From an uncultured Oscillibacter sp. (GTDB taxonomy: Bacteria; Bacillota; Clostridia; Oscillospirales; Oscillospiraceae), in the NCBI GenBank assembly GCA_946183715.1, contig CAMHDB010000001.1, positions 1-40,640 on the forward strand: a stretch of 40,640 nucleotides of DNA, written 5' to 3'. The notes below the pieces were generated by a model. The model was not told where the DNA came from and ran no database searches. It saw nothing but the letters and a program-made list of their open reading frames with translations. This document shows, in pieces, positions 1 to 33,748 of the stretch. The translations under genes were made by a program, and so were the position numbers. Within the stretch, counting starts at the first letter, position 1, and every line of letters begins with the position of its first letter.

Positions 1-1165
1 CGAACTCCACCCGCTTCTGTACGGCGTTCATGACCTCTTTCAGGCCCATGCTGTACAGGCCGCTCTCCGCCGCGTCGCTCAACAGCGACACCAAGTCTTT
101 ACGCTCCAGCCGCTCCACGTCCGGACGCTCCGTGAACCGCAACCCGTCCGCGTCCCAATAGCACTGCCACACGAGTTTCCGGACTGCCTCGCTTGCGGCG
201 TCGGCATCGCCCAGCGCGCGCGCGTAGCGGTCGAGGCCCGCGAAAAAGTCCGGGAATCGTTCGGGGTCGAGTTTCAGCGCGGCGTAGGGCAGGTATCCGG
301 AACGCTCCAAACGCGCTATGCGCCGCCGTTCGACGTTGCGCGCGCCCGTCTCCAAGACTAAATAGCCGCCGTCCCCGGCCAGCCGCGTGACATCCTCCGT
401 CGTGAAAATCAGGTCTTTCGGGGTGTTGTCGAGGTCCGACCAGTTCGACGCGCGCAACTCCCGCCGCATCCAGTGCGGCAGGCCGTACAGGATACAGCAG
501 AGCAGTTCCCGGAGTAAACGGTCTTTCCGGTCAGGCTCCATATCCGGCGCGCCGTACTGGATGTAAAGCGGCGGCACCTGACGCCCGCTTTCGTGTTTGG
601 CGTCCATGTGCGCGTACACGCACTGCAAGAGCGTCTTGTAGAGTTCGCGGCTGACGGACAGGCCCGTACTGTCGAGCGCGCGCGGGAAGTCGAACCCGTC
701 GCCGCGCGGCGGCTCCCTGAGTACGCCTTCCGTCAGGCGCGACAACGCCTCGCGCGCCAGTTCCGCCGACTCCGCCTCCGGTTCGACGCCCGTCGCGGCC
801 TCCTGCGTGAAGCACCCCGGGCCGAGGCACAACAGCGTCTCCGGGCGTTCCAGACACCCGCCGTCCGTCGCGAAAATGTAGGCGTGGGAGAACGAGTTAT
901 TCCCGCGCCCCATGTGGTCGCGCATGCCGTAGCGCGTCCGGATGACGTAGGCGTACTCGCCCTGACAGATAAGCTCGTACAGGCGCAGGGCCTTTCCGAA
1001 CTCGTCGGTAGCGCGGTCGGACGTATCCGCGCGCTGGAAGTGTTCGCAGTCGCGCAGGACTTCCGGCGGGATGTCCCGCGAAAAGGCCGTGGCCGTCCAG
1101 CCGCCTACTTTGTATGGCCCGTCGTATCGAAGTAAGTTTGTGTAACAGCACTGGTAAACTCGCAT
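1..1165 (-). CDS. GAP1-N2/GAP1-M-like (GTPase-associated protein 1) protein, 3' end outside window
   Basis: Not in the ORF track. Manual translation from ATG at 1165 (GGAGGGG RBS at 1171-1177) is open for 388 codons to the window edge: MRVYQCCYTNLLRYDGPYKVGGW...GMRDHMGRGNNSFSHAYIF...ILYGLPHWMRRELRASN. The YQxxYT / GR-x-N-x-FSHAY and LPxxxRxxL motifs fit GAP1-N2/GAP1-M as I recall them. It lies directly after the GTPase gene. Confidence 0.75.
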   Translation of the reverse strand, partial: MRVYQCCYTNLLRYDGPYKVGGWTATAFSRDIPPEVLRDCEHFQRADTSDRATDEFGKALRLYELICQGEYAYVIRTRYGMRDHMGRGNNSFSHAYIFATDGGCLERPETLLCLGPGCFTQEAATGVEPEAESAELAREALSRLTEGVLREPPRGDGFDFPRALDSTGLSVSRELYKTLLQCVYAHMDAKHESGRQVPPLYIQYGAPDMEPDRKDRLLRELLCCILYGLPHWMRRELRASNWSDLDNTPKDLIFTTEDVTRLAGDGGYLVLETGARNVERRRIARLERSGYLPYAALKLDPERFPDFFAGLDRYARALGDADAASEAVRKLVWQCYWDADGLRFTERPDVERLERKDLVSLLSDAAESGLYSMGLKEVMNAVQKRVEF

Positions 1166-1186
1166 ACATGCCCCTCCGGTACGCCG

Positions 1187-3016
1187 TCACAGCGGATTGT
1201 CTCCCAGTTTTGCCCAGTCTTCCTCCAGCCTGATTCGCTCCTCTTCTAATTCGGCGCGTTCCTCGTCCTCCGTCCACGCGTCGGCCCAGCGATTCCCGCA
1301 ACGGTTACAGCCCCGGTTGACGTAAGTCCGCGTAAGGCGCAGGAACCCCGACCGGATTTCGCGCTCGCCCAGCGGTAAAATATAGTTGTCGGTACTCCCG
1401 CACTCCGGACAGTTCACGCGCTTGTAGGGGTAGTCGATTTTCTCGTTGGTGTCGATGTAGCCGAAGCAGTGGAACAGCCACAGTAACGGCTCCTCGACGC
1501 GGCGCGTGGTGAAGTGGTCGCCCTCGTGTACGGGCAGGCCCGTCTCCTTGTCCACGTCACAGCCCAGCGCCGTGAACGCGAAACAGGCGTAGTTCTTGAA
1601 ATTGCCGTCCATCAACAGCGACAAGGACTCGTCGTGGGTCTGGAAGAACGTGTAGAGGCCGTCCAGAATGGGGTTGTAGGCCTTGGCGTTGAACACGGCC
1701 TCGTAGTAGCCGCGGTTGTCCCGGATTCCCTCGACTTCCTCGCTCAGCCGCCGCCGCAAGTCCTCGGGGAATAGCTGCATAAGCTCGTCCATCTTGGACA
1801 GGCACACCGCCACGGGTTTCCGGCACTTGCGGCGCGTGTCGCCGTCGGTGACGATGTTGTGAATGTTGCGGAGCGCCTGCGTGGGCTTATAGCGGAGTTC
1901 GCGCCCGGCCTTGGCCCCGACATACGAAGGGAACTGCGCCGGGTCAATCAACAACATGATACCGTCGGCGTAGCGGATGAACGGCGCGAACTGCAAGGCG
2001 TCGCGGGCGCGGCGCGGGTCCTCGAATACCTCCCCCGTGACGTCGTAAATGACGAGCGTCTCGACGCGCTTGTCGTTGCCGTTGACCGAACGCGACAGGT
2101 CGAAGAACAGCGGTTGATGTAGGTAAACCGTCGTGGAACCCGGGAGGGGCTTCCCGTAGGCGACCTCGTTGTCGTACAGGAACTGCGTGACGCTCGGCGA
2201 GTCGAACGCGTTGAGGTGTACTTTCGCCATGTACTTGTCCATGCCCTCGAAGAGGCGGCACAGGTAGACCGTCTTGCCCGAACCCGTAATGCCAATCACG
2301 GCCAGACGCCGCACGGGATTCTTGCCGTAGTTCGGCGGTAACGGGTTGTGGCAGTGCGGGCACACCCGCCTGTCGCATTCCAGCCCGTCCTCTTTTAACT
2401 GGATTTTCGCCGCCATCCCGTCAACGTCCCGGATGAGGTAGCCGCCGTCGGGCTGTACTTGCAAGTAACTCTGGTGTACCTTGTTGTTGGGGTCGAGGAT
2501 TCGCCGCCGCCACGGTTCGCGGTCGTGTTCGGTGTCGGTCTCGGTGGTACGCCCCCCGGCGAATTTCGCCCAGAAGCGCTCGTAAACCGGGTCGTCCGAT
2601 AAGTCGAAAAACGTATCCGCCGCCGGGGCCGCCGTGCGCGCCGCCTCCTGTACGCTCCGGATATCCCGCAGACGCTCCGACAGTTTCGCGATACGCGTCT
2701 TTAGCACGCAGTCCGGGAAGCGGTTCTCGAAGTCGCGCCAGTTGTCGTACTCCTCCTCCGGGTACAAGTCCTCGCGCGTGATTTCCGCGCCGCTCTCCAG
2801 CAGTTCCAACAGCCGCCCGCGCACATACGACAATAACTCCCGTTCGTCGCCGGGTTCGGCGGGGGTATCGGCGGGGAGTAAGGTATCGACAATCGTCTGT
2901 GCGCCGCTGACCGCCGGGGCCGCCGCCCGCGCGGACGTTACTTTCTCCGAACGGAACAGCACCTCGTCGTCCCGCATGGGCCGGAAACAGTAGGGGCAGG
3001 TGAATTGATAAGCCAT
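1187..3016 (-). CDS. TRAFAC-clade GTPase (DO-GTPase2-like) with N- and C-terminal zinc ribbons
   Basis: G1 GITGSGKT, G3 DVTGE, G4 SKMD, G5-like FTALG. CPYC ... CPHC pairs precede the G domain; CPECGS ... CNRCG at the C-terminus. AAAGGAG RBS upstream. Confidence 0.8.
   Translation of the reverse strand: MAYQFTCPYCFRPMRDDEVLFRSEKVTSARAAAPAVSGAQTIVDTLLPADTPAEPGDERELLSYVRGRLLELLESGAEITREDLYPEEEYDNWRDFENRFPDCVLKTRIAKLSERLRDIRSVQEAARTAAPAADTFFDLSDDPVYERFWAKFAGGRTTETDTEHDREPWRRRILDPNNKVHQSYLQVQPDGGYLIRDVDGMAAKIQLKEDGLECDRRVCPHCHNPLPPNYGKNPVRRLAVIGITGSGKTVYLCRLFEGMDKYMAKVHLNAFDSPSVTQFLYDNEVAYGKPLPGSTTVYLHQPLFFDLSRSVNGNDKRVETLVIYDVTGEVFEDPRRARDALQFAPFIRYADGIMLLIDPAQFPSYVGAKAGRELRYKPTQALRNIHNIVTDGDTRRKCRKPVAVCLSKMDELMQLFPEDLRRRLSEEVEGIRDNRGYYEAVFNAKAYNPILDGLYTFFQTHDESLSLLMDGNFKNYACFAFTALGCDVDKETGLPVHEGDHFTTRRVEEPLLWLFHCFGYIDTNEKIDYPYKRVNCPECGSTDNYILPLGEREIRSGFLRLTRTYVNRGCNRCGNRWADAWTEDEERAELEEERIRLEEDWAKLGDNPL
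2620..2932. repeat. 22-bp imperfect direct repeat pair (2620-2641 and 2911-2932) inside the GTPase gene
   Basis: ccgccggggccgccgtgcgcgc vs ccgccggggccgccgcccgcgc. The copies are 291 bp (97 codons) apart and both encode AR(T/A)AAPA linkers. Confidence 0.6.
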
Positions 3017-3029
3017 ACGGAATCTCCTT

Positions 3030-3710
3030 TCAGCGTTCGCGGCGGGGTTCCGACAGCCGCACGCCCGCGTTACGCGCCTGTAGTATCGGCTTCCGGGCCG
3101 TGCGGACGTAAAATTCCCCGCGCTCTATCATCTGCCTCGTGACCGGAATCAGCCAGCGGTCGCCGACGCTGTATTCCAAATCGCCGTCGCGGTAGTTCTC
3201 CGGGCACTTCCCCGGGAACGCCACCCGGAAAAATTCGGTGGGCGTCTCGCGGCGGAACAGCCAATAGCCGCTATGCGTCCGCACGGGGCCGACTTCTACG
3301 AGAATATTCATGGGCACGTCACAGCGCGGCGACGACATCGAATCGCGCCCCCGCGCCACGTACACCCGGCAAAGGTCGTCCGTCACGCACGGGAACACCG
3401 TGTAAGTACAGGCTTCCCCGTTGGCGTCGCAGCCCTGATTCCGGGCCTTCTCCTCCGCGCCGACGTAGCGCACCGACAACGACGCGCTGAGCGTCTGGAA
3501 GCGTCCCTCGGGCAGTCGCAAGCCGCAAACACGGTCGAGCAAATCCTGTAAAGCCTCCGGGTCGCGGGCCGGGTCGACGCCGTAGGGCGTCTGTACCAGC
3601 AAGCTGTCCTGACCGGGGAGCACCGTCCACGAAAGGCGGTTCGACTGCGGGTCGAGCGTCAGCGACGTGGCGTAGTGGTCGCGGTCGGCGGGGCGGCACT
3701 CGTATTTCAT
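3030..3710 (-). CDS. Hypothetical beta-strand-rich protein (226 aa), component of the GTPase operon
   Basis: ATG at 3710 follows an AAGGAG RBS and overlaps the upstream TGA (ATGA coupling). Alternating hydrophobic pattern suggests beta-sandwich domains. No signal peptide. Confidence 0.7.
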   Translation of the reverse strand: MKYECRPADRDHYATSLTLDPQSNRLSWTVLPGQDSLLVQTPYGVDPARDPEALQDLLDRVCGLRLPEGRFQTLSASLSVRYVGAEEKARNQGCDANGEACTYTVFPCVTDDLCRVYVARGRDSMSSPRCDVPMNILVEVGPVRTHSGYWLFRRETPTEFFRVAFPGKCPENYRDGDLEYSVGDRWLIPVTRQMIERGEFYVRTARKPILQARNAGVRLSEPRRER

Positions 3711-5644
3711 GCGGTTTCTCCTTCCCCGCTCCAAAGGTGGAAGCGTTCCAGCCGGAAAATATTCAGCGATTCCGCCGCGCTCCCCCGTCCCGTCTGATAG
3801 AAACGCGTCTTTTCCGGGTCGGGCAGACTGTCGCGGAGGGTTCTATAGAGCGTGTCGGGGGCGCGCTCGTCGATGTTCAGCAGGACGAACGACAGAAACG
3901 GCGTGTCAAGCGAAAAGCCCGTACAGAAATAGACAGGCGCGCCCGTCAGCGTCGCGCGGGTCTGCTCAATCTGTATCGCGCCGACATCCTCGAACGTCGC
4001 CGCGAACACGCCCCGCAAAGTACGGTTCTCGAAAATGCTGTCCATGACTTCCCGGAAAAAGTCGGTCATGCCCTCCACGTCCGGGATGGTCTGGAATTTC
4101 TCGCGGAGTTCGGCCTGACGGCTGTCGAAGAACGCCCGGAGATTGCGCGCGTAGTAGTGGATAAAGGCCTCGTTGTCGCCGTGGGCCTCGGGAATCTGGG
4201 AACGCGTCCGCATGAGTTCGTCCCACGCGCGGAGAAATTCCGTGGCGCGCGTCCCGGCGTCCCTGATTTCCGCTAAAAGTCCCTCCCGGATTTCGGCGTC
4301 CGACGACAACAGATACTTTAGCCGTTGCGCGGCGGTCTCCCGGATGGACGTGTCCGCCGACAAATGGTTGACAGGTTCGGCCAGTTCCCGCACGCGCTCC
4401 GGGTGTTCCGACAGCTCCACGAGTTCCTTGGCGTGGAAACTCCGCCGTAAGAAGTCGGCGTAGGCGCGGCGCCAGTTGCGGATGTCGCTCACGCGGTCGC
4501 GCAGGCCGTCGCGGGCGTCGTCGACGGCGCGCTCTAAATAGCAGTTCCACGCCCCGAACGTCAGCGCGTCAATACGCGCCGAAGAGGTCTCCGTACACAG
4601 CGCGTCACTCTCGGCGGCGTCGGGCGCGCCCAGCGGGAACGCCCGCAACAGTTCGCGGAGTTCGTCGCCCCCGGGCACGAAACGCGGGAGATTGCGTTCG
4701 ATTTCGTCGTCGAGTACGAGAAACGTCCCGTCCTCCGACAGTCCAAGCCGTTCGCGTGTGCGCTCCCGGTCGTGCCCGAACAAGTCGCCCACACCCGACG
4801 GCGCGAAGCCGTTCAACTCGTCCAGTAGGTGGTCGACACAAATTCTACTGATATCGTCGACGGGCTTTTCGGCGCGCGCGTAGCCCGCCGTCATGACCGC
4901 GCCCGGGCGGAAAAGTTCCTGTACAACCTGCGCGTCCTGATTGTTCGAGACCGCTATCAACGCCGTGACAAGGCGTCGGCACAGCGCGCCGTCGCGGTCA
5001 ATCAGGGAATCGCTTCTCCGGTTGCTCACAAGCATTAGGGACGGCATTTCGGCGCGGGCGTCGAGGCACTCGCCCAGACGGGCGCGGATTTGTTCGGCCT
5101 GTTCGCGGGCGGTGCGGCTGTCCTCCCGGAACAGCACGGAAAGCATGGTCAGTACGGGCGTCACGTTGTCGATGGAGCGCCGGAAGGTGTCGAGGGCGTC
5201 GAGCCAGAAGCCGAGTTCGTCCGCCGACTGAAACTCCGCCGTATCGAGAAGGGCGTACAGCAGAATGCGGTTGGCGCGCGAGAAGTGCGTCCCGACCCGG
5301 AACAGTTCCGCCGTCATGCCGCCGAGTTCCGCCGCCGTCAGCGGTACGGCCTTCCCGGTGTCGGGGCCTGCCGGGGGGAGTTCGCCCGTATGGCGTCCGG
5401 GGTTCGTGAATACGGGGCCGTGCGGCGCGCGCTCGGTGTCGACAAAGGCGATGTCGTCGCAGTACGGCGGCCAGAGCTGGCGCAAGCCGTACTGAATCAC
5501 ATGGTTCAGGCGCCGGGTTCCGCCGCCCAGCGTGAGTACCATCATGGGGTAACAGGGCCCCGTGTGCGGGCCGTTCACCGCCGACTGGCTGTCCGCGCGG
5601 CGGAGACGCTCCGAAAATTGTCTGGTCAGTTCCTGTACGGTCAT
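3707..5644 (-). CDS. Hypothetical 645-aa protein, possibly a degenerate tubulin-like paralog
   Basis: Long ORF with GGAGG RBS. N-terminal YPMMVLTLGGGT resembles the T1 loop ILIGLGGTG of the upstream gene, but GAG and GGGTGSG motifs are absent. The middle is predicted helical. Confidence 0.65.
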   Translation of the reverse strand: MTVQELTRQFSERLRRADSQSAVNGPHTGPCYPMMVLTLGGGTRRLNHVIQYGLRQLWPPYCDDIAFVDTERAPHGPVFTNPGRHTGELPPAGPDTGKAVPLTAAELGGMTAELFRVGTHFSRANRILLYALLDTAEFQSADELGFWLDALDTFRRSIDNVTPVLTMLSVLFREDSRTAREQAEQIRARLGECLDARAEMPSLMLVSNRRSDSLIDRDGALCRRLVTALIAVSNNQDAQVVQELFRPGAVMTAGYARAEKPVDDISRICVDHLLDELNGFAPSGVGDLFGHDRERTRERLGLSEDGTFLVLDDEIERNLPRFVPGGDELRELLRAFPLGAPDAAESDALCTETSSARIDALTFGAWNCYLERAVDDARDGLRDRVSDIRNWRRAYADFLRRSFHAKELVELSEHPERVRELAEPVNHLSADTSIRETAAQRLKYLLSSDAEIREGLLAEIRDAGTRATEFLRAWDELMRTRSQIPEAHGDNEAFIHYYARNLRAFFDSRQAELREKFQTIPDVEGMTDFFREVMDSIFENRTLRGVFAATFEDVGAIQIEQTRATLTGAPVYFCTGFSLDTPFLSFVLLNIDERAPDTLYRTLRDSLPDPEKTRFYQTGRGSAAESLNIFRLERFHLWSGEGETA

Positions 5645-5662
5645 GGCGAATCCTCCGCGCGC

Positions 5663-8600
5663 TCAAAGCTCGTTGTCAAGGCAGAACATCCGGAAACGCT
5701 GGAAGAAGTCTTTCAAGAACGCCTGAATTTCCGCGCCGTTCTCCCAGTTCGACGCAAGCTCCATGAGAATCGACTGCCGGTTCTGCGGGAAAACTTCTTT
5801 TAACGCCGTCCCGGCGGCGCGTAGTTCGGGCGTATTCTCGCGGTAACGCTTCTGGTACTCCCGCCGAATGCGTCCCTGCGCTTCCGTACTCAGTTTGCGG
5901 TAGTTCAAGAAGGCCTGATAGGGCGGAATCCGCGCGTAGGGGTACTCCCCGCTAAAATCGCACAGCGTCACGGGCATTCCGTCGTTGTCGTACACGATGG
6001 AGCGCCCGTTCATCGTCAAAACGCCCGTGAACAGCGCCTCGCAATAGTCGTTCATAATCCGCTTGCGGGCCTCGGCCTCCTGCGCCTGCCGTTCGTTCAG
6101 ACGCTTCATTTCGGCGTCCTTCTCGTCCGTCGCGACGAGTACCGCTTCGGCCTGTTCGAGCGTGTCGAGCGCCCCGGCGATTCCGGCATGGTACGCCGGG
6201 GACGATACGAAATGGTCTTCCTGTACGCGCAATATGATTTCTTCCTCACTGCGGTCGCCGTCCTGCGGGAGACCGTCGCCCGTCGGGTACAGCGGCCGCC
6301 GTAGGCGTTCCCGCACGGCCTCCGCCGCGCTGTACAACGCCGGCATGGCGTCGGGGCTGTGCGTCTGGTCGACGAGCGTCCGGCACGCTTCCGCCGCTTC
6401 CCGTAAGCCGTCCACGTCGGGCACGGCGTAGAAATTGCTGTCGTTGTCCAGCAGATTCCGGGCGCGGGTACGCTTCCAAAGCGCGCGCGCGGAGAGAATC
6501 GGCTTTTGCAGGTCGGGCGGCAAGTCCGAACAGCTCTCGGAAAGCACGCTCTGCGGCATAATCGACGGCAGATTCCGCCAGTCGTTGAAGCGCATGCCGG
6601 GCACGGGCTTTCCCTCGTAGGAGTGCCGCCCCACGGAGCGCGACGAGTAGAACATCTGCTCGTAGTTCTGACAGTTGTTGTACGCGCTCAGGGGCAGTCC
6701 GCACGCGCTCGACATGACGAAAATTCGGTCGGTCAGGGCGCTGGTCTTCAGGCCCCACAGCGAATCCTCGGCGTTACGCCGCCGCGCCGCCGCCGCTATC
6801 GGGGCCGATTCCGCCGGGTACGACAGGAACGCGAGTTTAGAAGTCCCGCTCTCCTGCCAAATCGAATTGTTGAAGTAGAACAGCGGGCGCGCCTTCTCGG
6901 TCAAAGGCCGAATCCAGTCGTTGTAGATACAGTGCGCGAGCGCGTCGTCGTCCATACGGGAGCCCTCCTGCGCCTCGTACTTGTCGCGGAGGAAATTCGT
7001 AATCGTGCGGTTGGCGAAGTTCTCGAAGGCCGTGTTCAGGAAAAAGTCGGTGACAAGGCGCGTAATGCGCCCCTCGTCCTCCTGTAGCCACTCCTCGGAG
7101 TGCTGTAACATCAGGGTCATGAACGAGTTGAACATGTTCGCGGCGTCCAGACGCCTGATTTCGGCGTCCAGCGCGGGGCGGAGTTCCGATACGCTCATCA
7201 TCGGCGTCGCGAAGCCCTCCAAATTCTGGTGTATCGCGTGGGAGGCCAGCGCCTGCCGGTTGTCCTCGAAGGTGTCGGTCAGATTCTGCGTGACGCGGCT
7301 TAAACGAATGTAATAGTTGCTCGACGCGTCCATGACCTGCTCGCGGAAATCGTGTAAGATACGCTTCATGTGCTGACAGGTGACGAGTTCCAATTCGTGC
7401 TGTTCGTGGGCGCTCAGGTAGTATTCGTAGGCCTCGAAGCGCGCCTTGTTCCCGAACAGCCCCCGCGCGCGCGCCTCGAAATTCAGGCGGGCGTTGTCGT
7501 AGTCCTGCTGTCGCTCGGTCGTGCGCTGTGACGCCGTCTCGTAGCGTTCATCGTTACGGCGAATCCAGTCGTCAATCAGCGTAATGAGGTTGTGCTTCTC
7601 CGCCGTCGACACGATTCCGTAGGCGTACAACGGCCCCCGCGACACGTCGCGTATAACCGGCTCCAGCGCGTTCCGGATACGCTGTATCAGCGAATCCGGC
7701 TGGGCGTCGTCCGACATCCGTTTCGCGTTGGCCTGTAGACGCGCCTTTTTCGCGGCGGTCTGCTTGGCGTAGTGGTCAACCAAATCCTTGTTGCCGTAGT
7801 CGCGGACAAACTTCCAGTCGTCCGTATAGGGCAGGTATTCCTCCGGCGCGGCGTCCTTCTGTACCTCCCGGAATAACGCGTTGTAGACTTCCTCGGCAGT
7901 CCCGGCCCCCGGGGCCAGTGCGCGGAACGACAATTCCTCGACTTCCGCCTGTTCGGGGCGGTTGCGGCGTATTCCCGCGAAGCTGTGGAACAGTTCGGAG
8001 GCCAGATACGTGTTAATCTCCCGTAGCGGCACGCTCGCGCACGCCGCCCCGATAATGCAGTAGTCCATACAGGCCCCGGTCAACTTCTTCTGGTTCGCCT
8101 CGCCTATCATCGACTGGAAGTTTGACAAGTGCTGTTGCAGGTCGAAAGTCGCGTTGGAATCCGTCAGGAAGTCCATGAGGTATTCCGCCGTGACGTTCAT
8201 GGCGTAGTCGTAGGCCTGCGCGATAGAATTATTGTCTTGGTCGGTGGCGCAAATCAAATGGCACATGTCCACGGGCGCGGCAGTCCACGGCACGGGCGGG
8301 CGGTTCGCTTGGTACATCTGCGAAAATCCGCCGCCGTTGAATTGCAAGTTCATGCAGTAGTCTAACTCCTGCATGGAGGCGTAGCCGTTCTTGCAAATGT
8401 AGTCGCGGACGCTGGAATTGGCGCGGGGCACGGGCCACAAGTTGACATCCGGGAGGAAGAAGTAGCCGAAAATCGTCACGGCCCCGAGGCGGTCGGCGAT
8501 AGACCGGATTAAGTAGCACACGTCCAGAAAGCACCCGGAACCCGTGCCGCCGCTCAGTCCCGAAAATACGTGGATATTCACGCGCGGGTTATTCAGGCCG

Positions 8601-9148
8601 ATTTTGGCCTTCTCTATCTCCTGTTCGAGTTTGCCGATAAAGTTCCCGGCCCTGTCCATGAACATGAACCGCCCGACTTGCCGGATACCCCCCGCGCCCG
8701 CGTCGGTCAAGTCCGGGAGGCGGATGGTCTCGTATTCCAGCCACGACAACTCTTTCCGGTGGTGCAGGGCCTGTTTATTCTGGAAGGCGCGCTGTAGCTG
8801 GTTGTTGGCGATGGAGAAAAATTCGCTGTCGGAGAGGGGCATAATCTGGTCGGCGGCGGCGCTGTTGTCGGGGCGCTTGTTCGGGTCCTGACGCAGCGCG
8901 CCGCGACGGCTTGCCTCCGCGCTGTCGACGCCCAGAAAACGGATATGGGAGTAAGTCGGCACGGCGGCCCCGGGGATATCGGGCTTGAGGCGGTCGTAGA
9001 CCTGCGTTTTGATGGTTCGGATACAGTGTACGCCCGTACCGCCCAGCCCGATGAGGATACTGGCGGTATTGCGTGCTTGGTCGGCCTGCTGTCCGGCGGA
9101 GATGATGCCGCCTCCCGTACTCAACAGCAGTCTTGCGTAACTTGACAT
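5663..9148 (-). CDS. Large tubulin/FtsZ-like GTPase (Tubulin_2-type) with long helical/coiled-coil extension
   Basis: IGLGGTG (T1), GAGGIRQVGR (T3), SGLSGGTGSG (tubulin signature), NGYASMQELDY. Start at 9148 preferred because of the AAGGAGG RBS at 9154-9160. Confidence 0.88.
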   Translation of the reverse strand: MSSYARLLLSTGGGIISAGQQADQARNTASILIGLGGTGVHCIRTIKTQVYDRLKPDIPGAAVPTYSHIRFLGVDSAEASRRGALRQDPNKRPDNSAAADQIMPLSDSEFFSIANNQLQRAFQNKQALHHRKELSWLEYETIRLPDLTDAGAGGIRQVGRFMFMDRAGNFIGKLEQEIEKAKIGLNNPRVNIHVFSGLSGGTGSGCFLDVCYLIRSIADRLGAVTIFGYFFLPDVNLWPVPRANSSVRDYICKNGYASMQELDYCMNLQFNGGGFSQMYQANRPPVPWTAAPVDMCHLICATDQDNNSIAQAYDYAMNVTAEYLMDFLTDSNATFDLQQHLSNFQSMIGEANQKKLTGACMDYCIIGAACASVPLREINTYLASELFHSFAGIRRNRPEQAEVEELSFRALAPGAGTAEEVYNALFREVQKDAAPEEYLPYTDDWKFVRDYGNKDLVDHYAKQTAAKKARLQANAKRMSDDAQPDSLIQRIRNALEPVIRDVSRGPLYAYGIVSTAEKHNLITLIDDWIRRNDERYETASQRTTERQQDYDNARLNFEARARGLFGNKARFEAYEYYLSAHEQHELELVTCQHMKRILHDFREQVMDASSNYYIRLSRVTQNLTDTFEDNRQALASHAIHQNLEGFATPMMSVSELRPALDAEIRRLDAANMFNSFMTLMLQHSEEWLQEDEGRITRLVTDFFLNTAFENFANRTITNFLRDKYEAQEGSRMDDDALAHCIYNDWIRPLTEKARPLFYFNNSIWQESGTSKLAFLSYPAESAPIAAAARRRNAEDSLWGLKTSALTDRIFVMSSACGLPLSAYNNCQNYEQMFYSSRSVGRHSYEGKPVPGMRFNDWRNLPSIMPQSVLSESCSDLPPDLQKPILSARALWKRTRARNLLDNDSNFYAVPDVDGLREAAEACRTLVDQTHSPDAMPALYSAAEAVRERLRRPLYPTGDGLPQDGDRSEEEIILRVQEDHFVSSPAYHAGIAGALDTLEQAEAVLVATDEKDAEMKRLNERQAQEAEARKRIMNDYCEALFTGVLTMNGRSIVYDNDGMPVTLCDFSGEYPYARIPPYQAFLNYRKLSTEAQGRIRREYQKRYRENTPELRAAGTALKEVFPQNRQSILMELASNWENGAEIQAFLKDFFQRFRMFCLDNEL

Positions 9149-9215
9149 GGGTTCCTCCTTCATGCTTTCCGCCGCCTCTTCCGTCCTTGTGCGGGCGGGG
9201 CGGTTCCATGACAGG

Positions 9216-9255
9216 GAAACCCGTCCGGCGCGGTCGAGAGGCCCGGACGGGTTTC
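9216..9255 (-). other. 13-bp perfect stem-loop in the vWA-tubulin intergenic region
   Basis: gaaacccgtccgg (9216-9228) / ccggacgggtttc (9243-9255), 14-nt loop, no clear U-tract. Confidence 0.6.
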
Positions 9256-9261
9256 ATACTT

Positions 9262-11451
9262 TTACGGCCTCGGCGGTTTTGGGACTTTGCGTTTCGGGGG
9301 GCGCGGGGGTTTCGGGGGCCGGGGCGGACGCGCCGCACGCGCCGGGGCCTTACTCGTGAACTGTACCACAAGGCGGTTGCCGGGGTGGTCGGGCGTCAGA
9401 ATGCTGACGGCGCTCCCGCTCCGTACAGTCACCTTTCGCGTACCGCCCGCCGGAATGCCCGGTACCGACGCCCGTACAGGCTTATGGAGACGTAACACGA
9501 CCGCGCCCTTGCCGCCCGGGTAGAACGCGCAGCGGCCCGGAATCAGGCCGAAGGCGCTCTCGAGGTTGTCGACGCCGAAGCGCGAGAGCGGGAAGCGTCC
9601 GCGAATCGGGGACTGGACGAACGTCCGGGGGGAGACCGCCCCGCCGATTTCGGTACTGATTTCAATCGTGCCGTGATAGGGGGCGTTCAGGCGGGCGAAT
9701 GTAGCCGCGATAAACAGCGCGGCGAGGACAAACAGGACAATCAGGAACGGAATCAGGGGGTTCGGGCGCTCCACGGCGGAGACTTCCACGTATAATTCGG
9801 CGCTCTGTCCGGCGGCGTCGGCCACGGAGACAATGAAACTGCCTGTGGGAAGCGTGTAGTTCTCCGCCGACAGCACCCCGCCGGACAGCGCCGCCGTCGC
9901 GCCGTCGGGGGCGCGGAGCAGACTGTAGGACAATGTTTCGGGGCTCTCGTCCGTCACGTACTCCCGCAGGTCTACCGACAGCGTGTCGCCGAGGTACAGC
10001 TTGACTTTCACGGGGTCTTGCAGGATTTGCGGGGGATTGTCGACGGGCGGCGGCGCGGAGAACGTCCGCTCCGTCCAGTCGGAGACGAATTGACACGGCT
10101 CTATCGGGAATGACCGCACGTTTTCCGCGTTTTCGGCGACGGTCAGCTCTCCGGGCGCCGACACACGTACCGCGAAACGATACGTCCCCATGTCCGGCGG
10201 CTCGAACTCCGTCGTAAAGCCGTTGCCGTCGGGGGCCGCCTTCATCGTCTCCCGATACGGTTCCGTCGTCGCGGCGGCGTCCGATACGACCATCAACTCC
10301 GCCTGAAACCCTTGGTACTGCTCCGGACTGTCCGCGACGACGCCGGCGGCCTCCAATGTCGCGCGGATTTCGCACGGGTTCCCCTCCGATACTGTCACGT
10401 TTACCTGCAAGTCGGCGTTGTAGAGTAAGCGTAGCCGCACGGTGTCGCCCTGACGCCCCTCAAGGCGCAGTGTCCAGTTGCCGGGGCGGTCTACCGGGAC
10501 ATTCAAGAGCGCGTCGCCGTCGCTGAGAAGTTCGGCTCGTGTGAGCGTCAGCCCGTCGGGGCCTGTCAGACGCACGTCGTCGAGTTCGGCGAACGTCCGG
10601 CCTACTAACATAATCTGTACGGAATCCAGTCCGAACCCCGGAATCACGAACGGGACTTCCAGCGCGCCGTCGCGGAGTACCAGCGGCGTGTCGCCGGGTT
10701 CGGGGATATAGACCGTGTCCGTGCCGATGGACTCCGTCAACAGCGCGAAGAGTTCCTCGGACAGGTAGCGGTTGGAGTTCAATTCGCGGAAGTAGCGCGT
10801 ATCGGAGGCGATTTCGCGCATTTCCGACAAGTCCGCCGCGCCGTTCATGTTCAGGCACAGCGTGAGAATCGGAATCCCCTGTTCTTTCGCGGTGCGGGTT
10901 GCGTCGGCCTGCAAGGTTTCCGAACGCTCCTGCGCGGCGGTATCGCGGCCCAAGTCCGTCAGGCCGTCGCTGACGAGCAGTATCGCCGCGCGCGCGTCCG
11001 GACTGCCCCTCCCGGCCAGCCGCACGGCCTCCCAAAGCGCCGCGCCCGTGTTCGTGTACTGCCCTTTCGCCTGTCTTGTCGCCGTTTCCAGCGCGCTCCG
11101 GCTCAAATCCGACGCTTCCAGCGGCTCGGGGTCGCGGGAGGCGTCGATGTCGTTCGAGAAAATCACGTAGCCGACTTCATAGTGTTCCCGGCTACCCGTG
11201 GCGGTGTCGCGGCGGAGATAGTCCAGAAATTCCTCGATAGCGTCGAACCGGTAGCCGTCGGGGTCAGTCCCGGCAACGCGCTGTCCGGTACCCCGGTCGG
11301 TGTAGCCCGACAGCGACAAACTCGCGTCGAGGACGAGAATCAGCTTCCGCCCCGCGCGCGTACTCTCCGCCGCCCCCGCGCAAAGGTTCGGCAGACAGAG
11401 CAGTACACAGAATAGAAGCAGAATCCGCTTGCACAGTCGCGGCGTTGTCAT
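9262..11451 (-). CDS. Secreted, single-pass membrane vWA-domain protein with Ig-like stalk and cytoplasmic tail
   Basis: Signal peptide (KRILLLFCVLLCLPNLCAGA), MIDAS DASLS...TNTG...LLVSDG, beta-rich repeats, TM helix LIPFLIVLFVLAALFIAATFA, Pro/Arg/Lys-rich C-terminus. Alternative start at 11469. Confidence 0.85.
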   Translation of the reverse strand: MTTPRLCKRILLLFCVLLCLPNLCAGAAESTRAGRKLILVLDASLSLSGYTDRGTGQRVAGTDPDGYRFDAIEEFLDYLRRDTATGSREHYEVGYVIFSNDIDASRDPEPLEASDLSRSALETATRQAKGQYTNTGAALWEAVRLAGRGSPDARAAILLVSDGLTDLGRDTAAQERSETLQADATRTAKEQGIPILTLCLNMNGAADLSEMREIASDTRYFRELNSNRYLSEELFALLTESIGTDTVYIPEPGDTPLVLRDGALEVPFVIPGFGLDSVQIMLVGRTFAELDDVRLTGPDGLTLTRAELLSDGDALLNVPVDRPGNWTLRLEGRQGDTVRLRLLYNADLQVNVTVSEGNPCEIRATLEAAGVVADSPEQYQGFQAELMVVSDAAATTEPYRETMKAAPDGNGFTTEFEPPDMGTYRFAVRVSAPGELTVAENAENVRSFPIEPCQFVSDWTERTFSAPPPVDNPPQILQDPVKVKLYLGDTLSVDLREYVTDESPETLSYSLLRAPDGATAALSGGVLSAENYTLPTGSFIVSVADAAGQSAELYVEVSAVERPNPLIPFLIVLFVLAALFIAATFARLNAPYHGTIEISTEIGGAVSPRTFVQSPIRGRFPLSRFGVDNLESAFGLIPGRCAFYPGGKGAVVLRLHKPVRASVPGIPAGGTRKVTVRSGSAVSILTPDHPGNRLVVQFTSKAPARAARPPRPPKPPRPPKRKVPKPPRP

Positions 11452-11465
11452 GTTCACTCCCCCCG

Positions 11466-13019
11466 TCATTGGACGCGCAGTCTTAACAGCCGCGCGCCTT
11501 CATCGTAGTTGTAGAGCTCCTCTACATCGTACCCCGCTTCCCGAAATTCATGCAACATCGTGTTCAAATCGTCGTTGTTGTGGTCGGAGACAATGTAGAG
11601 CGTGTCGGGCCAGTCGGGGCCGTAGAGGCCGTCGAAATAGGCGCGGTACTCCTCCCCGCTCCGTGCCTCGTACCAGTCCATGTACGTGACGCGGTTCTCG
11701 GTGTCGGCGGTGTAGCCGGGCGTCATGCGGACGTAGTAGGCGAAACCGCCGTTAGCGGCGTAGTAGACAAGCGTCGTTTCGTCGGGGCCCCCGGCGTCGT
11801 ACCAGCGGTAGACAGCCTCCCGGATGTCGTCCTTTATCCAGTTTTTCGACAGGCGCGTGTTCCACGACAGCACGCACGAACAGGCGACAAAACACAGTGC
11901 CGCGCCGAGTACGAGTACGGGCACGCCGCGCTTGTCCAAGAACGGCTCCTCCGCGAGAATCCGCACGCACTCCCAAAGCAGTACGGCCCCGAGGGGAACC
12001 CACAGCGGGATAAAGAACAGGTTGTAGCGGTTGCCGAAGCCGCCGTAGGACATATCGGCGTAGACACCCGCCTTGACCGCGAAGTAGTAGAAAAGCCAAG
12101 TGAGGGCGTTGGCGAGGACGAACGCCCGCGCCGGACGCCGCCCCCAAACAAGTACGGCCACGGACGCCAGCAATACTACGCCCAGCAACAGCCGCGCCGA
12201 CATGCCGGAGTAGTCCGGGGCCATATTCCAGCGGAATACGGTCATGAGATTGCGGAGGGAATCGCGGAAAAATCCGTCGTGGAAGGTAATCGAAGTCCCG
12301 GCGAAGCTCCCGCCGCGCTGCATGGGCAACTGTTTTTTGAGGAACAGGAACCACAGCGGCAGTCCGGCGCAAATGAGCGCGGCGGCGTATCCGGCGCACA
12401 GTTCGAGGGTACGCCGCGCGCCGCGCATGGCGAAGAACGCCGTCAGGGCCAGCGCCGCGACCGGGAAGGCCGCGCCGTACTGACTGTATACGGGCACAAT
12501 CGCCGAGAGCAGGAACAGGGCAATATTCTTTCGCGACGGCTCCTCAAAGAGGCGGAACCACGCGCAGACAGTCCAGAAGAGGCTCGCCAGCAGTAAGCAG
12601 TATTCGGCGGCCTCCTGCCAGTAGAAGGACATGCGATACACGAACGCCGCGCCGCAGACGACCGCCGCCGCGAACCAAGTCTGCCCGGTGTAGCGCCGGA
12701 CGGTACGGTGAAGCGCGGCCATTCCCACAAGTCCGGCGCAGACGCCGAAGAAGCGGAACCACCATTCGGTGTCGCTGACGCGCAGCCAGAACCAGAGGAG
12801 GACGTTGTAGAGGGGCGGCTGTAGGGTCGTGACAATCCGCTCGTACATGTTCGCGGTCTGCGAGAAGGGGAGCGGGCCTGTCAGGACTTTGGAATACCAG
12901 TATTCAATCGCCTCGTCGAACCACAGCGCCGACATCGTGAGGCGGTGACAGGACACAAGGAAAAACAGCGCGAATGCCGCGCCTGTCAGCAGGAAATCCC
13001 GTTGCTTTGACTGTTTCAT
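11466..13019 (-). CDS. GT-C fold (GT39/GT83, PMT_2-like) integral membrane glycosyltransferase, GtrC-like role
   Basis: LWFDEA acidic motif after TM1, QPPLY motif, many TM segments, soluble C-terminal domain. Confidence 0.8.
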   Translation of the reverse strand: MKQSKQRDFLLTGAAFALFFLVSCHRLTMSALWFDEAIEYWYSKVLTGPLPFSQTANMYERIVTTLQPPLYNVLLWFWLRVSDTEWWFRFFGVCAGLVGMAALHRTVRRYTGQTWFAAAVVCGAAFVYRMSFYWQEAAEYCLLLASLFWTVCAWFRLFEEPSRKNIALFLLSAIVPVYSQYGAAFPVAALALTAFFAMRGARRTLELCAGYAAALICAGLPLWFLFLKKQLPMQRGGSFAGTSITFHDGFFRDSLRNLMTVFRWNMAPDYSGMSARLLLGVVLLASVAVLVWGRRPARAFVLANALTWLFYYFAVKAGVYADMSYGGFGNRYNLFFIPLWVPLGAVLLWECVRILAEEPFLDKRGVPVLVLGAALCFVACSCVLSWNTRLSKNWIKDDIREAVYRWYDAGGPDETTLVYYAANGGFAYYVRMTPGYTADTENRVTYMDWYEARSGEEYRAYFDGLYGPDWPDTLYIVSDHNNDDLNTMLHEFREAGYDVEELYNYDEGARLLRLRVQ

Positions 13020-13039
13020 GGGTACTTGTTTCTCCGTTT

Positions 13040-13486
13040 TCAGGATTTGTCGGGCGCGGAAGGCGTCCGGAAAATCAGTAACTTGCTTGCGACGTAATTC
13101 AGTACGACGACCAGCACGTTGTCGAGGGCTTTTATCAGGATATCATTCCAGCCGAGCACGTCCACGAACAGGAACATACAGCCCAAATCAAGTAAGCCCG
13201 TCGCGAGGCGGCACGAAAAGAACGAGGCCATTTCCCGCGCGATTTCCGCCGCCGTCCGCGCCGAACTCCGGAACACCCACCGCCGATTTGTCACGTAGGC
13301 GAACAGTACGGCGAGAATCCACGCGATAACCGTCGAGGCCGCCACGCTCAGCCCCAGCGGGTACGCCGAGGCCCAGTACGCTGCCATATTGACCAGCGTC
13401 GTACACACGCCGAAAAACAGGTACGGTATCACATCCCGGTAGCGCGTGTAAAGGGCTTTGACTTTCTCAAGATTCACGGCTTTCAC
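13040..13486 (-). CDS. GtrA family flippase
   Basis: YLFFGVCTTLVN, FAYVTNRRWVF, NYVASKLLIF motifs; about 4 TM segments; 148 aa. Confidence 0.9.
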   Translation of the reverse strand: MKAVNLEKVKALYTRYRDVIPYLFFGVCTTLVNMAAYWASAYPLGLSVAASTVIAWILAVLFAYVTNRRWVFRSSARTAAEIAREMASFFSCRLATGLLDLGCMFLFVDVLGWNDILIKALDNVLVVVLNYVASKLLIFRTPSAPDKS

Positions 13487-14204
13487 CCTTTCCGTCGCGC
13501 TTCATCTCCCTGCGGAAGGCGTGGAAATCGCCGAGAGCCTTCCAGCCGATTCCCACGATTTTCCGCACGTTCACGGAGTTGACCCCGGCCTGTCGCGGGC
13601 GGAACGTGATTTTCCGGAAGCGAATCGGCTCGCCGTAGTAGGCGAAGAACGTCGTCATCATGATGTTGGGGAGGTTGTAGTCGGGGGCCATGCGGGGGAG
13701 GTACTTGGCGACGGTCGCGGCGCGCATGAGGCGGAAGGGCGCGTTGGCGTCCGGGACGCTCACGCGGAAGTAGAGGCCCAGCAACAGGCATACGACGCGC
13801 TCCACGAACGCGCGGATTTTCCCGTCGCCGCGCTCCTTGCGGAACCCGAAGATTCCGGCGTAGCGTTCGCGCAGATTCCAGAACGCGCCGAACTCCGCCG
13901 GGTCGGTCTGCCCGTCGGAATCCGTCTGAAAGATGTAGTCGGCCCCCCGCTTGATGGCGTAGTCGTAAAGGGCAATTACTTTCGGGCCGTGCTGTTTGCC
14001 CGTGTCGGAGAGGATTTCGAGTTTCGGATACTCCTCCCGCAAGGCCTCCAGAATGCCGTGCGTCCCGTCGGTACTCCCGCTGTCGGCAATCACGAGGCGC
14101 GACGCCTCGTCTTTGCCGTCGAGTACCGGGTACCACGCCCGCACGACTTCCTCAATGTTTTCTTCCTCATTATAGGCGGGCATGACAAGATATAAACTGT
14201 CCAT
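13467..14204 (-). CDS. GT2 polyprenyl-phosphate glycosyltransferase (GtrB/DPM1-like)
   Basis: VMPAYNEE, DSGSTDGT, QTDSDGQ (DxD), DANAPFRLMR motifs. Confidence 0.9.
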   Translation of the reverse strand: MDSLYLVMPAYNEEENIEEVVRAWYPVLDGKDEASRLVIADSGSTDGTHGILEALREEYPKLEILSDTGKQHGPKVIALYDYAIKRGADYIFQTDSDGQTDPAEFGAFWNLRERYAGIFGFRKERGDGKIRAFVERVVCLLLGLYFRVSVPDANAPFRLMRAATVAKYLPRMAPDYNLPNIMMTTFFAYYGEPIRFRKITFRPRQAGVNSVNVRKIVGIGWKALGDFHAFRREMKRDGKGESRES

Positions 14205-14245
14205 GCGTTTGTCCCTGCCTTTCTTTTCCCGGTAAGGTGGAAAGT

Positions 14246-14274
14246 ATTATATACGCTGTCAGATAGTTTTGCAA
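14246..14274 (-). promoter_or_regulatory. Sigma-A-type promoter for the glycosylation/vWA/tubulin/GTPase operon
   Basis: Minus strand TTGCAA-N17-TATAAT, about 40 bp upstream of the GT2 start. Confidence 0.7.
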
Positions 14275-14361
14275 GCGTCAATTTGCGGGGGCAAAAAAAG
14301 CATGGACAACGGGCGGCAAGTGTTGTAAACTGTCGGTAAGCGAAAGAGGGGAGGCGGGAGC

Positions 14362-15348
14362 GTGTCCTACAATCCACAGGATTTCGGGAGCGTGATGGAG
14401 TATCTGTACGGGCGGTTCGGGGCGGAGGTGTTCCGGGACGCGCCGCGGATGTACGCGATATTCTGCGACCTCTCGCCGAGGCTGAAGCCCTACGGAAATA
14501 TTATGCGGCAGTTGGCCGAGCGGGGCCTGCCGACGGCGCTGGGGGAGGCCGTGCGCGACGGCGACGATATCGCACAGGCGCGCGTGATGATGAGGGCGCG
14601 CGACTGCCTCGAAAACGAACTGCTTCTCGCGCCGGAGCGGGCGTCGTACTTCCTGCGGGTACTGGGCGGGCTCTACGGCGTCGCGCCGCCGCCGCTTCCG
14701 GAACCCGCACAACCGCCGATTCCGCAAGCCGTGCCGCAACCTGTACAGCCGCCCCCGATTCCGCAAGCGGTGCCGACGCCGATGTCGGGGCGTTCGGGGG
14801 CGCTGTCGTGGGAGTTGGACAGCGCCGGAACCCTCACGATTTCCGGGCGCGGCGACATGGACGACTTTACAAGACAGGGCTACCACCAGTCCGGCGCGCC
14901 GTGGTGTACGCGGCAAGCGGAATTGTCGGCGGTCGTGCTCCGGGACGGCGTGACCGGAATCGGGGAGAACGCGTTCTACTACTGCGCCAACCTCCGCCGC
15001 GCGGAGATTCCCGACACCGTGCGGCGTATTGGCTGCATGGCCTTCCGGGGCTGTGCGGGCCTGAAACGCGTGACGATTCCGAACGGCGTCGCGGAAATCG
15101 GCGTGTCGGCGTTTGAAGGCTGTACGGCCCTGACGGGTATCAGGATTCCGCGCGGCGTAACGGCCATTCAGCCCCACGCCTTCGCGGAGTGTAAGAGCCT
15201 GACCAGCGTCACGATTCCCGACAGCGTGCGGAGTATCGGCTACCGCGCCTTCCGCGACTGCTCCAGCCTGTCCCGCGCCTACGTCCCCGCCGCCGCCAAA
15301 ATCGACGCCGACGCTTTCGCCTCCAATACCGCCGTCATACGCCGCTAG
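14362..15348 (+). CDS. BspA/LRR_5 leucine-rich repeat protein with N-terminal helical domain and Pro-rich linker
   Basis: Repeats IPxxVxxIGxxAFxxCxxL preceded by the LSWELDSAGTLTISGRGDM cap. No signal peptide. GTG start with GGAGG upstream. Confidence 0.85.
   Translation: MSYNPQDFGSVMEYLYGRFGAEVFRDAPRMYAIFCDLSPRLKPYGNIMRQLAERGLPTALGEAVRDGDDIAQARVMMRARDCLENELLLAPERASYFLRVLGGLYGVAPPPLPEPAQPPIPQAVPQPVQPPPIPQAVPTPMSGRSGALSWELDSAGTLTISGRGDMDDFTRQGYHQSGAPWCTRQAELSAVVLRDGVTGIGENAFYYCANLRRAEIPDTVRRIGCMAFRGCAGLKRVTIPNGVAEIGVSAFEGCTALTGIRIPRGVTAIQPHAFAECKSLTSVTIPDSVRSIGYRAFRDCSSLSRAYVPAAAKIDADAFASNTAVIRR
14716..14775 (+). repeat. Duplicated 21-bp unit encoding PIPQAVP in the LRR protein linker
   Basis: ccgattccgcaagccgtgccg (14716) / ccgattccgcaagcggtgccg (14755). 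Confidence 0.7.
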
Positions 15349-15362
15349 CGCAACGCGAAAAT

Positions 15363-28842: not shown

Positions 28843-28855
28843 CATTTGCGGGAGG

Positions 28856-30277: not shown

Positions 30278-30282
30278 CGGAA

Positions 30283-30314
30283 CGCTTCCCCATTCCGCCC
30301 GGGATGGGGAAGCG
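30283..30314 (+). terminator. GC-rich hairpin after the SLH gene
   Basis: cgcttccccat...atggggaagcg stem; no strong U-tract. Confidence 0.4.
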
Positions 30315-30393
30315 ATAAGAAATCTTATTAGGAAAGTATCGCACGGGCGGGATTCCGTCCCGTCCGGAAGAAAAAATTCAAAGGGGGTAGGTC

Positions 30394-32439: not shown

Positions 32440-32501
32440 GTGCGCGGCGGTCGCGGGGCGGGTTCGGCGAATGTGAAATTTGTATCATGGGAGGAGTTTC
32501 T

Positions 32502-33704: not shown

Positions 33705-33711
33705 ACAAACG

Positions 33712-33737
33712 ACACCCCCGCCGGAAAGCGGGGGTGT
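33712..33737. terminator. Terminator hairpin between convergent genes
   Basis: acacccccgc-cggaaa-gcgggggtgt, flanked by A/T-rich runs. Confidence 0.7.
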
Positions 33738-33748
33738 ATTCTTTACGC

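What the first reader, a model, noticed from the sequence alone, without database searches (positions are those of the whole stretch)
1..11451. Six-gene vWA receptor / tubulin-like / GTPase / GAP1 operon: candidate membrane-sensing conflict or signalling system
Seen: six tightly spaced co-oriented genes encoding an extracellular MIDAS-vWA single-pass protein, a 1161-aa protein with complete tubulin/FtsZ GTP motifs, a 645-aa protein, a 226-aa beta protein, a zinc-finger TRAFAC GTPase and a GAP1-N2-like protein. Established: DO-GTPase/GAP1 families were defined by comparative genomics of NTP-dependent 'ternary' conflict systems (Aravind group) and, to my knowledge, have not been characterised experimentally. 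Inference: a surface vWA sensor signals to a polymerising tubulin-like scaffold gated by a second GTPase and its GAP1 partner, acting in anti-phage defence, cell-contact sensing or membrane remodelling. Two unrelated GTPase folds and a receptor-like protein in one operon is the strongest signal in the window. Any effector would lie beyond position 1.
Basis: partly seen in the sequence, partly recalled or inferred. Interest (0 to 1): 0.88.

Follow-up and report, generated by a model that had tools for sequence, protein, structure and literature searches.

The report
Split-tubulin operon with dead twin
Six tightly linked genes of a gut bacterium encode a surface adhesion-type receptor, a giant tubulin-like protein, a predicted GTP-less twin of it, a small unknown protein and a GTPase switch with its partner; this kind of operon was described by computation in 2010 and 2020, no experiment on it was found, and it likely builds a receptor-controlled scaffold under the membrane.

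Summary
The six genes are real and as described. The order is conserved in 25 of 35 related loci, and all six genes are under purifying selection. The kind of system is known: the FtsZl1-vWA operon (Makarova & Koonin 2010) and the GAP1-N2/DO-GTPase tubulin theme (Kaur 2020). This scan also found it before on other DNA.

Added here, from predicted models: (1) The 1161-aa protein has a complete two-domain tubulin fold, split by a ~380-residue helical arm (Z 22-26). The 2010 paper could not find that C-terminal domain. (2) The 645-aa protein has the same split fold (top 16 of 48,161 chains are all tubulin family) but no GTP motifs in 26 of 26 homologues. (3) The two may bind: weak support, 0.57 vs best control 0.15. 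(4) Neither keeps the catalytic T7 acid.

No toxic effector follows GAP1 in close relatives, and neighbours are not defence islands. Best reading: a receptor-gated membrane scaffold; anti-phage defence is the close rival. Function untested.

The parts
9262..11451 (-). Surface receptor (729 aa): signal-like N-terminus, MIDAS vWA domain (~35-225), stalk, one TM (~562-590), ~110-aa cytoplasmic domain, Pro/Lys-rich tail
   Evidence: Pfam VWA; MIDAS invariant in 23 homologues; vWA structures are the best PDB hits; hydropathy
9216..9255 (.). Perfect 13-bp inverted repeat in the only long intergenic gap, between the vWA and tubulin genes; role unknown
   Evidence: read from the sequence printed; overlaps a + strand terminator-like site
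5663..9148 (-). TubA, FtsZl1/Tubulin_2 protein (1161 aa): GTPase domain 33-333, S7 367-377, helical arm ~380-757, rest of the tubulin C-domain 775-870, helical tail to 1166 (numbering of the 1166-aa ORF)
   Evidence: Pfam; AlphaFold2 pLDDT 88, pTM 0.74; VIA to FtsZ, CetZ and tubulin, Z 22-26
3707..5644 (-). TubB, predicted pseudo-tubulin (645 aa): same split fold, shorter arm (~262-570), no T3/T4 GTP loops
   Evidence: AlphaFold2 pLDDT 85, pTM 0.75; Foldseek best hit CetZ2 E 5e-4; VIA wide search; motif scan 0 of 26; dN/dS 0.08-0.19
3030..3710 (-). 226-aa stand-alone protein of a fast-diverging family; sits where an FNIII-repeat component would be expected; fold undetermined
   Evidence: 294 clusters at 50% identity; no consistent Pfam or PDB match; Atlas model too poor
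1187..3016 (-). DO-GTPase2 (609 aa): split N-terminal zinc ribbon (C7/C10 + C219/C222), G1 GITGSGKT, Walker B DVTGE, G4 SKMD, C-terminal zinc ribbon
   Evidence: Pfam PF19993; invariant columns
2..1165 (-). GAP1 with GAP1-N2 domain, cut by the contig end after 388 aa (1007 aa in the nearest relative L002)
   Evidence: Pfam PF20013

Best explanation
The operon likely encodes a receptor-gated scaffold under the cell membrane: a metal-dependent vWA receptor would sense a surface or envelope ligand, a giant tubulin-fold GTPase (TubA) would assemble in response, its predicted GTP-less twin (TubB) would cap or template it, and the zinc-ribbon GTPase with GAP1 would set the on/off threshold. Shown: genes, motifs, synteny, selection. 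Predicted by models: both tubulin genes carry the full two-domain fold, interrupted after strand S7 (the M-loop position, where tubulins make lateral contacts; position inferred from the order of elements) by a long helical arm. Inferred: TubB sits on TubA's GTP-bearing face. Since neither keeps the T7 catalytic acid, assembly would not be timed by FtsZ-type polymerisation-coupled hydrolysis and would need an outside switch, the likely job of DO-GTPase/GAP1. The output is likely the assembly itself (organising or repairing a membrane site), not a toxin.
For: Six-gene order intact in 25 of 35 loci; 6 more are cut by contig ends. All 26 loci that hold the GTPase also hold TubB and the 226-aa gene. 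dN/dS 0.03-0.30 in 23 of 23 comparisons. Split fold: model 32..824 aligns to B. subtilis FtsZ 11..316 (Z 22.6, 281 aligned, rmsd 3.5) and 32..869 to tubulin 1..426 (Z 23.0, 347 aligned, rmsd 3.5). TubB: ranks 1-16 of 48,161 are all tubulin superfamily (best Z 15.0, 276 aligned, rmsd 4.7; first unrelated Z 8.5). TubA(8-335)+TubB(1-638): weak support, 0.57 vs best control 0.15, runs agree in at least 90% of contacts, partner pLDDT at least 80; the mark was reached by 116 of 157 solved and 2 of 215 mismatched pairs, but at 0.60 or under by only 18 of 157 and by both mismatches. The vWA domain is the most conserved part of the receptor (46% vs 35%), as for a fixed ligand. No PADLOC match for 8 window proteins. 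9 of 81 neighbour proteins hit PADLOC, all through generic ATPase, amylase or WYL domains. [quoted passage not shown]
Against: No experiment on any step. The complex score is weak, gave no interface and may come from likeness to solved tubulin dimers. Profile-profile comparison of TubA and TubB failed (probability 0.2%), so the kinship rests on predicted models. No evidence links the receptor's tail to TubA. Patchy spread (5 of 36 same-genus genomes), different flanks in different lineages, extra and often degenerate or broken TubA copies in 8 loci and a fast-diverging 226-aa family fit a conflict system at least as well.
Confidence: 0.45

Rival explanations
1. Anti-invader conflict system (Kaur et al. 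2020): the receptor or the 226-aa protein senses a phage or rival cell, the GTPase/GAP1 pair sets the threshold, and tubulin assembly is itself the effector (containment, decoy or growth arrest).
For: Patchy, mobile spread: Tubulin_2 in 7 of 61 genomes, 3 of 38 high-quality ones. Repeated TubA duplication and decay. Apparently inactive enzyme copies: TubB, and a kinase-fold gene with an altered catalytic loop after GAP1 in 18 of 24 loci. 294 clusters for a 226-aa family. The authors' argument (PMC7159879, sections 27-29 and passages of 35).
Against: No toxin, nuclease or pore domain found after GAP1 in any locus examined. Neighbours are mostly housekeeping genes. The receptor domain is conserved, not hypervariable, and no gene shows dN/dS near 1 as a whole. 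Same chromosomal place in four close relatives, three of them measured at dS 0.55-0.97.
Confidence: 0.35
2. Accessory scaffold that positions a secretion or DNA-transfer machine, like the mycobacterial Sae proteins for ESX-1.
For: MSMEG_0044-46 belong to these neighbourhoods; SaeC label. TraG/VirD4-like ATPases lie beside the system in L015, L030 and L046. An FtsK-like ATPase lies near another FtsZl1 subtype in G005.
Against: EssC over the cut-off in only 1 of the 7 Tubulin_2 genomes; not found in G000 (84% complete) or G023 (95%). No such neighbour in the window or its four closest loci. The Sae paper itself could not be read.
Confidence: 0.12
3. Housekeeping cytoskeleton for cell division or shape.
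For: Complete tubulin fold and GTP-binding loops.
Against: The genome has a separate canonical FtsZ; no match in 31 of 36 same-genus genomes searched.
Confidence: 0.03

Closest known systems
FtsZl1-vWA operons (Makarova & Koonin 2010, PMC2875224; Pfam Tubulin_2 PF13809)
   Same: vWA gene with intact MIDAS, large FtsZ-like protein with long helical region, zinc-binding GTPase. Additional file 5 lists 'Bacteroides capillosus' BACCAP_01027-01022 as vWA 786 / FtsZl1 1103 / hypothetical 555 / hypothetical 183 / GTPase 547: the same order and size class (homology of the two hypotheticals not tested).
   Different: The paper found no T6-H7 elements and no tubulin C-terminal domain and left filament formation open. 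The model here has both, split by the helical arm. The gene after FtsZl1 was unassigned there.
GAP1-N2-type DO-GTPase ('GTPase-centric') systems, Firmicute tubulin theme (Kaur, Burroughs, Iyer & Aravind 2020, PMC7159879)
   Same: DO-GTPase with Walker-B Glu and zinc ribbons, GAP1-N2 directly downstream, two tubulin-domain genes with helical C-terminal parts, a membrane-bound vWA protein.
   Different: One vWA gene here, not two (a second, multi-TM vWA follows further downstream in G001). No FNIII match for the 226-aa gene. One of the two tubulin genes lacks GTP motifs, which the sections read do not state. One zinc ribbon is C-terminal.
alpha/beta-tubulin, BtubA/B, CetZ, FtsZ, TubZ (solved structures)
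   Same: Two-domain fold (Z 22-26 for TubA, 9-15 for TubB); adjacent paired paralogues as in BtubA/B (recalled).
   Different: A 310-380-residue arm inside the C-domain; no conserved T7 acid; a partner with no GTP loops at all; 4-19% identity.

Membership tests
FtsZl1-vWA operon (Makarova & Koonin 2010) | N-terminal FtsZ-like domain with GGGTG(S/T)G-type loop | tested here: met
   PF13809 192.5 bits; SGGTGSG at 204-210
FtsZl1-vWA operon (Makarova & Koonin 2010) | Extended helical/coiled-coil middle and helical C-terminal part | tested here: met
   helices 380-757 including one of 68 residues, helical tail to 1163
FtsZl1-vWA operon (Makarova & Koonin 2010) | Adjacent vWA gene with intact MIDAS | tested here: met
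FtsZl1-vWA operon (Makarova & Koonin 2010) | Diverged P-loop GTPase with xKxD motif, often zinc-binding | tested here: met
GAP1-N2 DO-GTPase system (Kaur 2020) | DO-GTPase with conserved Glu in Walker B | tested here: met
   PF19993 over cut-off; D325, G328, E329 invariant in 19 sequences
GAP1-N2 DO-GTPase system (Kaur 2020) | GAP1 with N2-type domain downstream of the GTPase | tested here: met
   PF20013 35.3 bits over 24; same order in 26 of 26 loci holding the GTPase
GAP1-N2 DO-GTPase system (Kaur 2020) | GAP1-M and GAP1-C domains | tested here: inconclusive
   no such Pfam hit in the cut window protein or in three full-length homologues; profiles may miss diverged forms
GAP1-N2 DO-GTPase system (Kaur 2020) | FNIII-repeat component | tested here: inconclusive
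   226-aa family: no FN3 family among the Pfam families shown for 115 members (25 of 40 shown, each matched by one member) or in PDB; no usable model
Firmicute tubulin theme of GAP1-N2 systems | Two tubulin-domain genes | tested here: met
   TubA by Pfam; TubB by predicted fold only
Firmicute tubulin theme of GAP1-N2 systems | Two vWA genes | tested here: not met
   one in the window and in the close loci L002-L004 and L006; second present in G001. So this is a reduced form, not the full textbook theme
Canonical FtsZ/tubulin polymerising GTPases | T7 loop acid that completes the neighbour's GTPase site | tested here: not met
   no conserved acidic column in TubA 334-348 (best D 7 of 26, E 5 of 26); TubB keeps only a partial N-x-D; register set by eye
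Canonical FtsZ/tubulin polymerising GTPases | GTP-dependent filament formation | not testable with these tools
   needs purified protein
Known anti-phage defence systems (PADLOC) | Profile match and defence-island context | tested here: not met
   0 of 8 window proteins; no recognisable system among 81 neighbours. The library dates from 2023

The most novel reading that the evidence does not exclude
FtsZl1 proteins are true two-domain tubulins whose M-loop has become a 300-400-residue arm, and this operon encodes an obligate active/dead tubulin heterodimer with no built-in GTPase timer, switched by a separate GTPase and by an integrin-like surface receptor: an outside-in signalling path to a bacterial tubulin cytoskeleton.
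Probability: 0.25. Interest if true: 0.8.

Novelty: new member of a known kind. Interest (0 to 1): 0.42.

Why it matters
FtsZl1 was described in 2010 in many bacteria and archaea. Whether it can form filaments was left open then because the C-terminal domain seemed missing, and a 2023 phylogeny still excluded the family for lacking it (PMC9871819). The split-fold model answers the structural half of that question and names the constructs and mutants to test. This compact six-gene form is a tractable version for the first experiment. The operon type itself is not new, which caps the interest.

Tried and rejected
Profile-profile comparison TubB vs TubA: not significant. Sequence searches of PDB with the TubA, TubB, 226-aa and GTPase alignments gave no close solved relative. 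NCBIfam: nothing over cut-off. An Atlas check of TubB did not complete. Expression: two RNA-labelled runs held only short contigs (listed pieces 150-280 bp) and DNA carry-over is not excluded, so nothing is claimed on transcription or co-transcription. Promoter and terminator scan: counts at chance level. Rfam: nothing. The rest of GAP1 and the ~313-aa downstream gene were not found in the assembly. The kinase-like gene was not found in G000, G004, G023, G061 or G062; only partial matches to other kinases. The upstream glycosyltransferase gene (11466-13019, 14-bp gap) was rejected as a core part: beside vWA only in L001, L003, L004, L006. My TubB and 226-aa profiles did not match the similar-sized genes of the distant G043 operon. 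Literature: ten full-text searches found no experimental study of FtsZl1/DO-GTPase/GAP1 and no report of the split fold; subscription papers are not covered. Kaur's Figure 1-source data PDF was too large to read and may already assign the 645-aa and 226-aa families.
Full report
Observation. The window is the start of contig C1 of a 1.79-Mb, 84% complete assembly. Its closest public relatives are Oscillibacter MAGs, several titled from goat and sheep foregut samples. Six minus-strand genes fill 2-11451, each behind a plausible ribosome-binding site. Pfam gives VWA, Tubulin_2, none, none, DO-GTPase2 and GAP1-N2, the four hits all over their cut-offs. GC matches the rest of the window. GAP1 is cut by the contig end and its remainder is not in the assembly.

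Conservation. A scan with the tubulin-like protein returned 35 loci from Oscillospiraceae, Lachnospiraceae, other Clostridia, a Streptococcus, Atopobiaceae and a Bifidobacterium. With profiles built from these loci, the order vWA-TubA-645-226-GTPase-GAP1 is complete in 25 of 35. Six more are cut by contig ends. Four differ: three near-identical orphan TubA copies (L025, L027, L028) and L031 with three TubA and one vWA. The loci are not all independent. All six genes are under purifying selection against four close relatives (dN/dS 0.03-0.30, 23 comparisons). The system is patchy: Tubulin_2 in 7 of 61 genomes, 5 of 36 in the genus, two of the seven being distant subtypes. The genome has a separate FtsZ.

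Beyond position 1. The nearest relative L002 (95% nucleotide identity over 10.7 kb) has a 1007-aa GAP1, then a 313-aa protein with a signal-like N-terminus and no family match, then an SLH protein. That 313-aa gene follows GAP1 in L002-L004 and was found in only 2 of 61 genomes, both operon carriers. In 18 of the 24 loci with sequence past GAP1, a kinase-fold gene follows instead, usually with a Sel1-repeat/3-TM protein and a polytopic membrane protein. Its profile hits MELK-type kinases (E 2e-8), but its catalytic loop reads YxDFHxSR, so it is probably inactive (inference). G001 adds a second vWA and a second GAP1-like gene. No toxin or nuclease domain was seen.

TubA. AlphaFold2 with 26 sequences gave pLDDT 88, pTM 0.74. 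VIA aligned residues 32 to 824 to the whole of FtsZ (2vxy 11-316, Z 22.6, 281 aligned, rmsd 3.5), 33 to 843 to CetZ1 (Z 24.7, 308, 3.6) and 32 to 869 to tubulin 1-426 (Z 23.0, 347, 3.5). The secondary structure explains the range: GTPase domain to 333, a helix, strand 367-377, about 380 residues of helices, then strand-helix-strand-strand-helix at 775-839. So the C-terminal domain is present but split after S7, the M-loop position (inferred from element order; the tool gives only range ends). The second half is better conserved than the arm (39% vs 33%) and is detectable in a distant FtsZl1 (G043, E 5e-5). The GTP-binding loops are near-invariant, but the stretch that matches FtsZ's GFINLDFAD loop has no conserved acid (by eye).

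TubB. Sequence methods found nothing. Its model (pLDDT 85, pTM 0.75) repeats TubA's order of elements with a ~310-residue arm and no tail. Foldseek's best hit is CetZ2 (E 5e-4). Against 48,161 chains the top 16 are all tubulin, CetZ, TubZ, FtsZ or PhuZ, aligned over about 31-641 (Z 15.0 to 9.4; next 8.5). None of 26 homologues carries a T1, T3 or T4 motif, yet the gene is kept in all 26 GTPase-bearing loci and is under selection. A complex of TubA 8-335 with TubB 1-638 scored 0.57 against a best control of 0.15, runs agreeing in at least 90% of contacts, partner pLDDT at least 80. This is weak: 116 of 157 solved and 2 of 215 mismatched pairs reached the mark, but only 18 of 157 did so at 0.60 or under, as did both mismatches; solved tubulin dimers may be remembered; no interface was given.

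Other parts. The receptor has an intact MIDAS and its vWA domain is its most conserved region. The GTPase has the DO-type Walker-B glutamate and two zinc ribbons. The 226-aa family is stand-alone, has 294 clusters at 50% identity, and its fold is undetermined.

Function. Against defence: no PADLOC match in the window, only generic hits in 9 of 81 filtered neighbour ORFs drawn from 22 loci, housekeeping flanks, no effector, a conserved receptor. For defence: patchiness, changing flanks, extra TubA copies in 8 loci with several degenerate or broken, dead-enzyme copies. A type VII secretion link, suggested by the mycobacterial Sae genes (lead from note e1-3360739), is not obligate: EssC in 1 of 7 carrier genomes. 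I put a receptor-gated membrane scaffold at 0.45, defence at 0.35 and a secretion scaffold at 0.12.

What is known. Makarova & Koonin 2010 (PMC2875224; read parts 1-3 of 5, supplement 5 parts 2-3, supplement 6) defined FtsZl1 with vWA and GTPase neighbours, proposed membrane remodelling, found no tubulin C-domain, and listed an operon of the same order and size class. Kaur et al. 2020 (PMC7159879; read passages and sections 27-29) defined DO-GTPase/GAP1 and a Firmicute theme with two tubulin genes and two vWA genes; its source-data PDF could not be read. PMC9871819 (passages) excludes the family as lacking FtsZ_C and Tubulin_C domains. PMC8525676 (one table passage) gives the SaeC label. PMC3701619, PMC13104609 and bioRxiv 2021.10.17.464699 (passages) added only the citation. 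Wirth 2012 was not held; its content is recalled. Earlier notes of this scan describe the same system in other genomes, one with a 'dead twin'; I had noted that idea before reading them and tested it here.

Verdict. A real, conserved, already described but apparently untested operon type. The worthwhile additions are the predicted split tubulin fold, the GTP-less twin and the missing catalytic acid, which make the 2010 filament question testable. New member of a known kind; interest 0.42.

Noticed in passing
L002:12593-13534, L003:20896-21840, L004:20855-21790: ~313-aa secreted protein directly after GAP1 in the closest clade, with conserved SFCSEACY and GHMV motifs (papain-like Cys/His pair suspected by eye); found in only 2 of 61 genomes, both operon carriers. 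Candidate seventh gene.
   Followed up: partly
L007-L011, L013, L014, L017-L023, L030, L032-L034, downstream of GAP1: Conserved module: probable pseudokinase, Sel1-repeat protein with three C-terminal TM helices, polytopic membrane protein. Not mentioned for the Firmicute theme in the sections of Kaur 2020 that I read.
   Followed up: partly
L010, L017, L020, L021, L030, L031, L034, L035; G012:C3:22952: Extra TubA copies, often truncated, split or with altered T4 loops (for example SDETGSG, PETGAG); L020 has a 98-aa copy of the N-terminus only.
   Followed up: partly
window 9148-9070 (TubA residues 8-32): The short segment before the GTPase domain (YxxLLLSxGGGII) is the most conserved part of TubA (63% mean identity); possible docking peptide.
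   Followed up: no
L015:13394-14779, L030:123-1451, L046:11852-14464: TraG/VirD4-like coupling ATPase beside the system in three lineages; in L046 followed by a 416-aa gene with no Pfam match that resembles it by eye.
   Followed up: partly
L048 (G005:C4): A different FtsZl1-vWA subtype followed by a 1408-aa membrane protein, an FtsK-like ATPase and a 100-aa helical protein resembling WXG100 by eye.
   Followed up: no
L009:4191-7586 (- strand): A second, divergently oriented DO-GTPase2 gene and a 772-aa gene upstream of the vWA gene.
   Followed up: no
L016: System flanked by TerD genes on both sides and followed by TadZ-like and secretion ATPase genes.
   Followed up: no
window 11466-15528 (- strand): PMT_2 glycosyltransferase, GT2 and a 416-aa unknown gene co-oriented directly upstream (14-bp gap to vWA); PMT and GT2 shared with L001, L003, L004, L006 only.
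   Followed up: partly
window 27562-37385 (+ strand): Cluster of SLH-domain and Listeria-Bacteroides repeat surface proteins, a NERD/zinc-ribbon gene and a serpin; a CHAP-SH3 gene on the - strand at 33749-34906.
   Followed up: no
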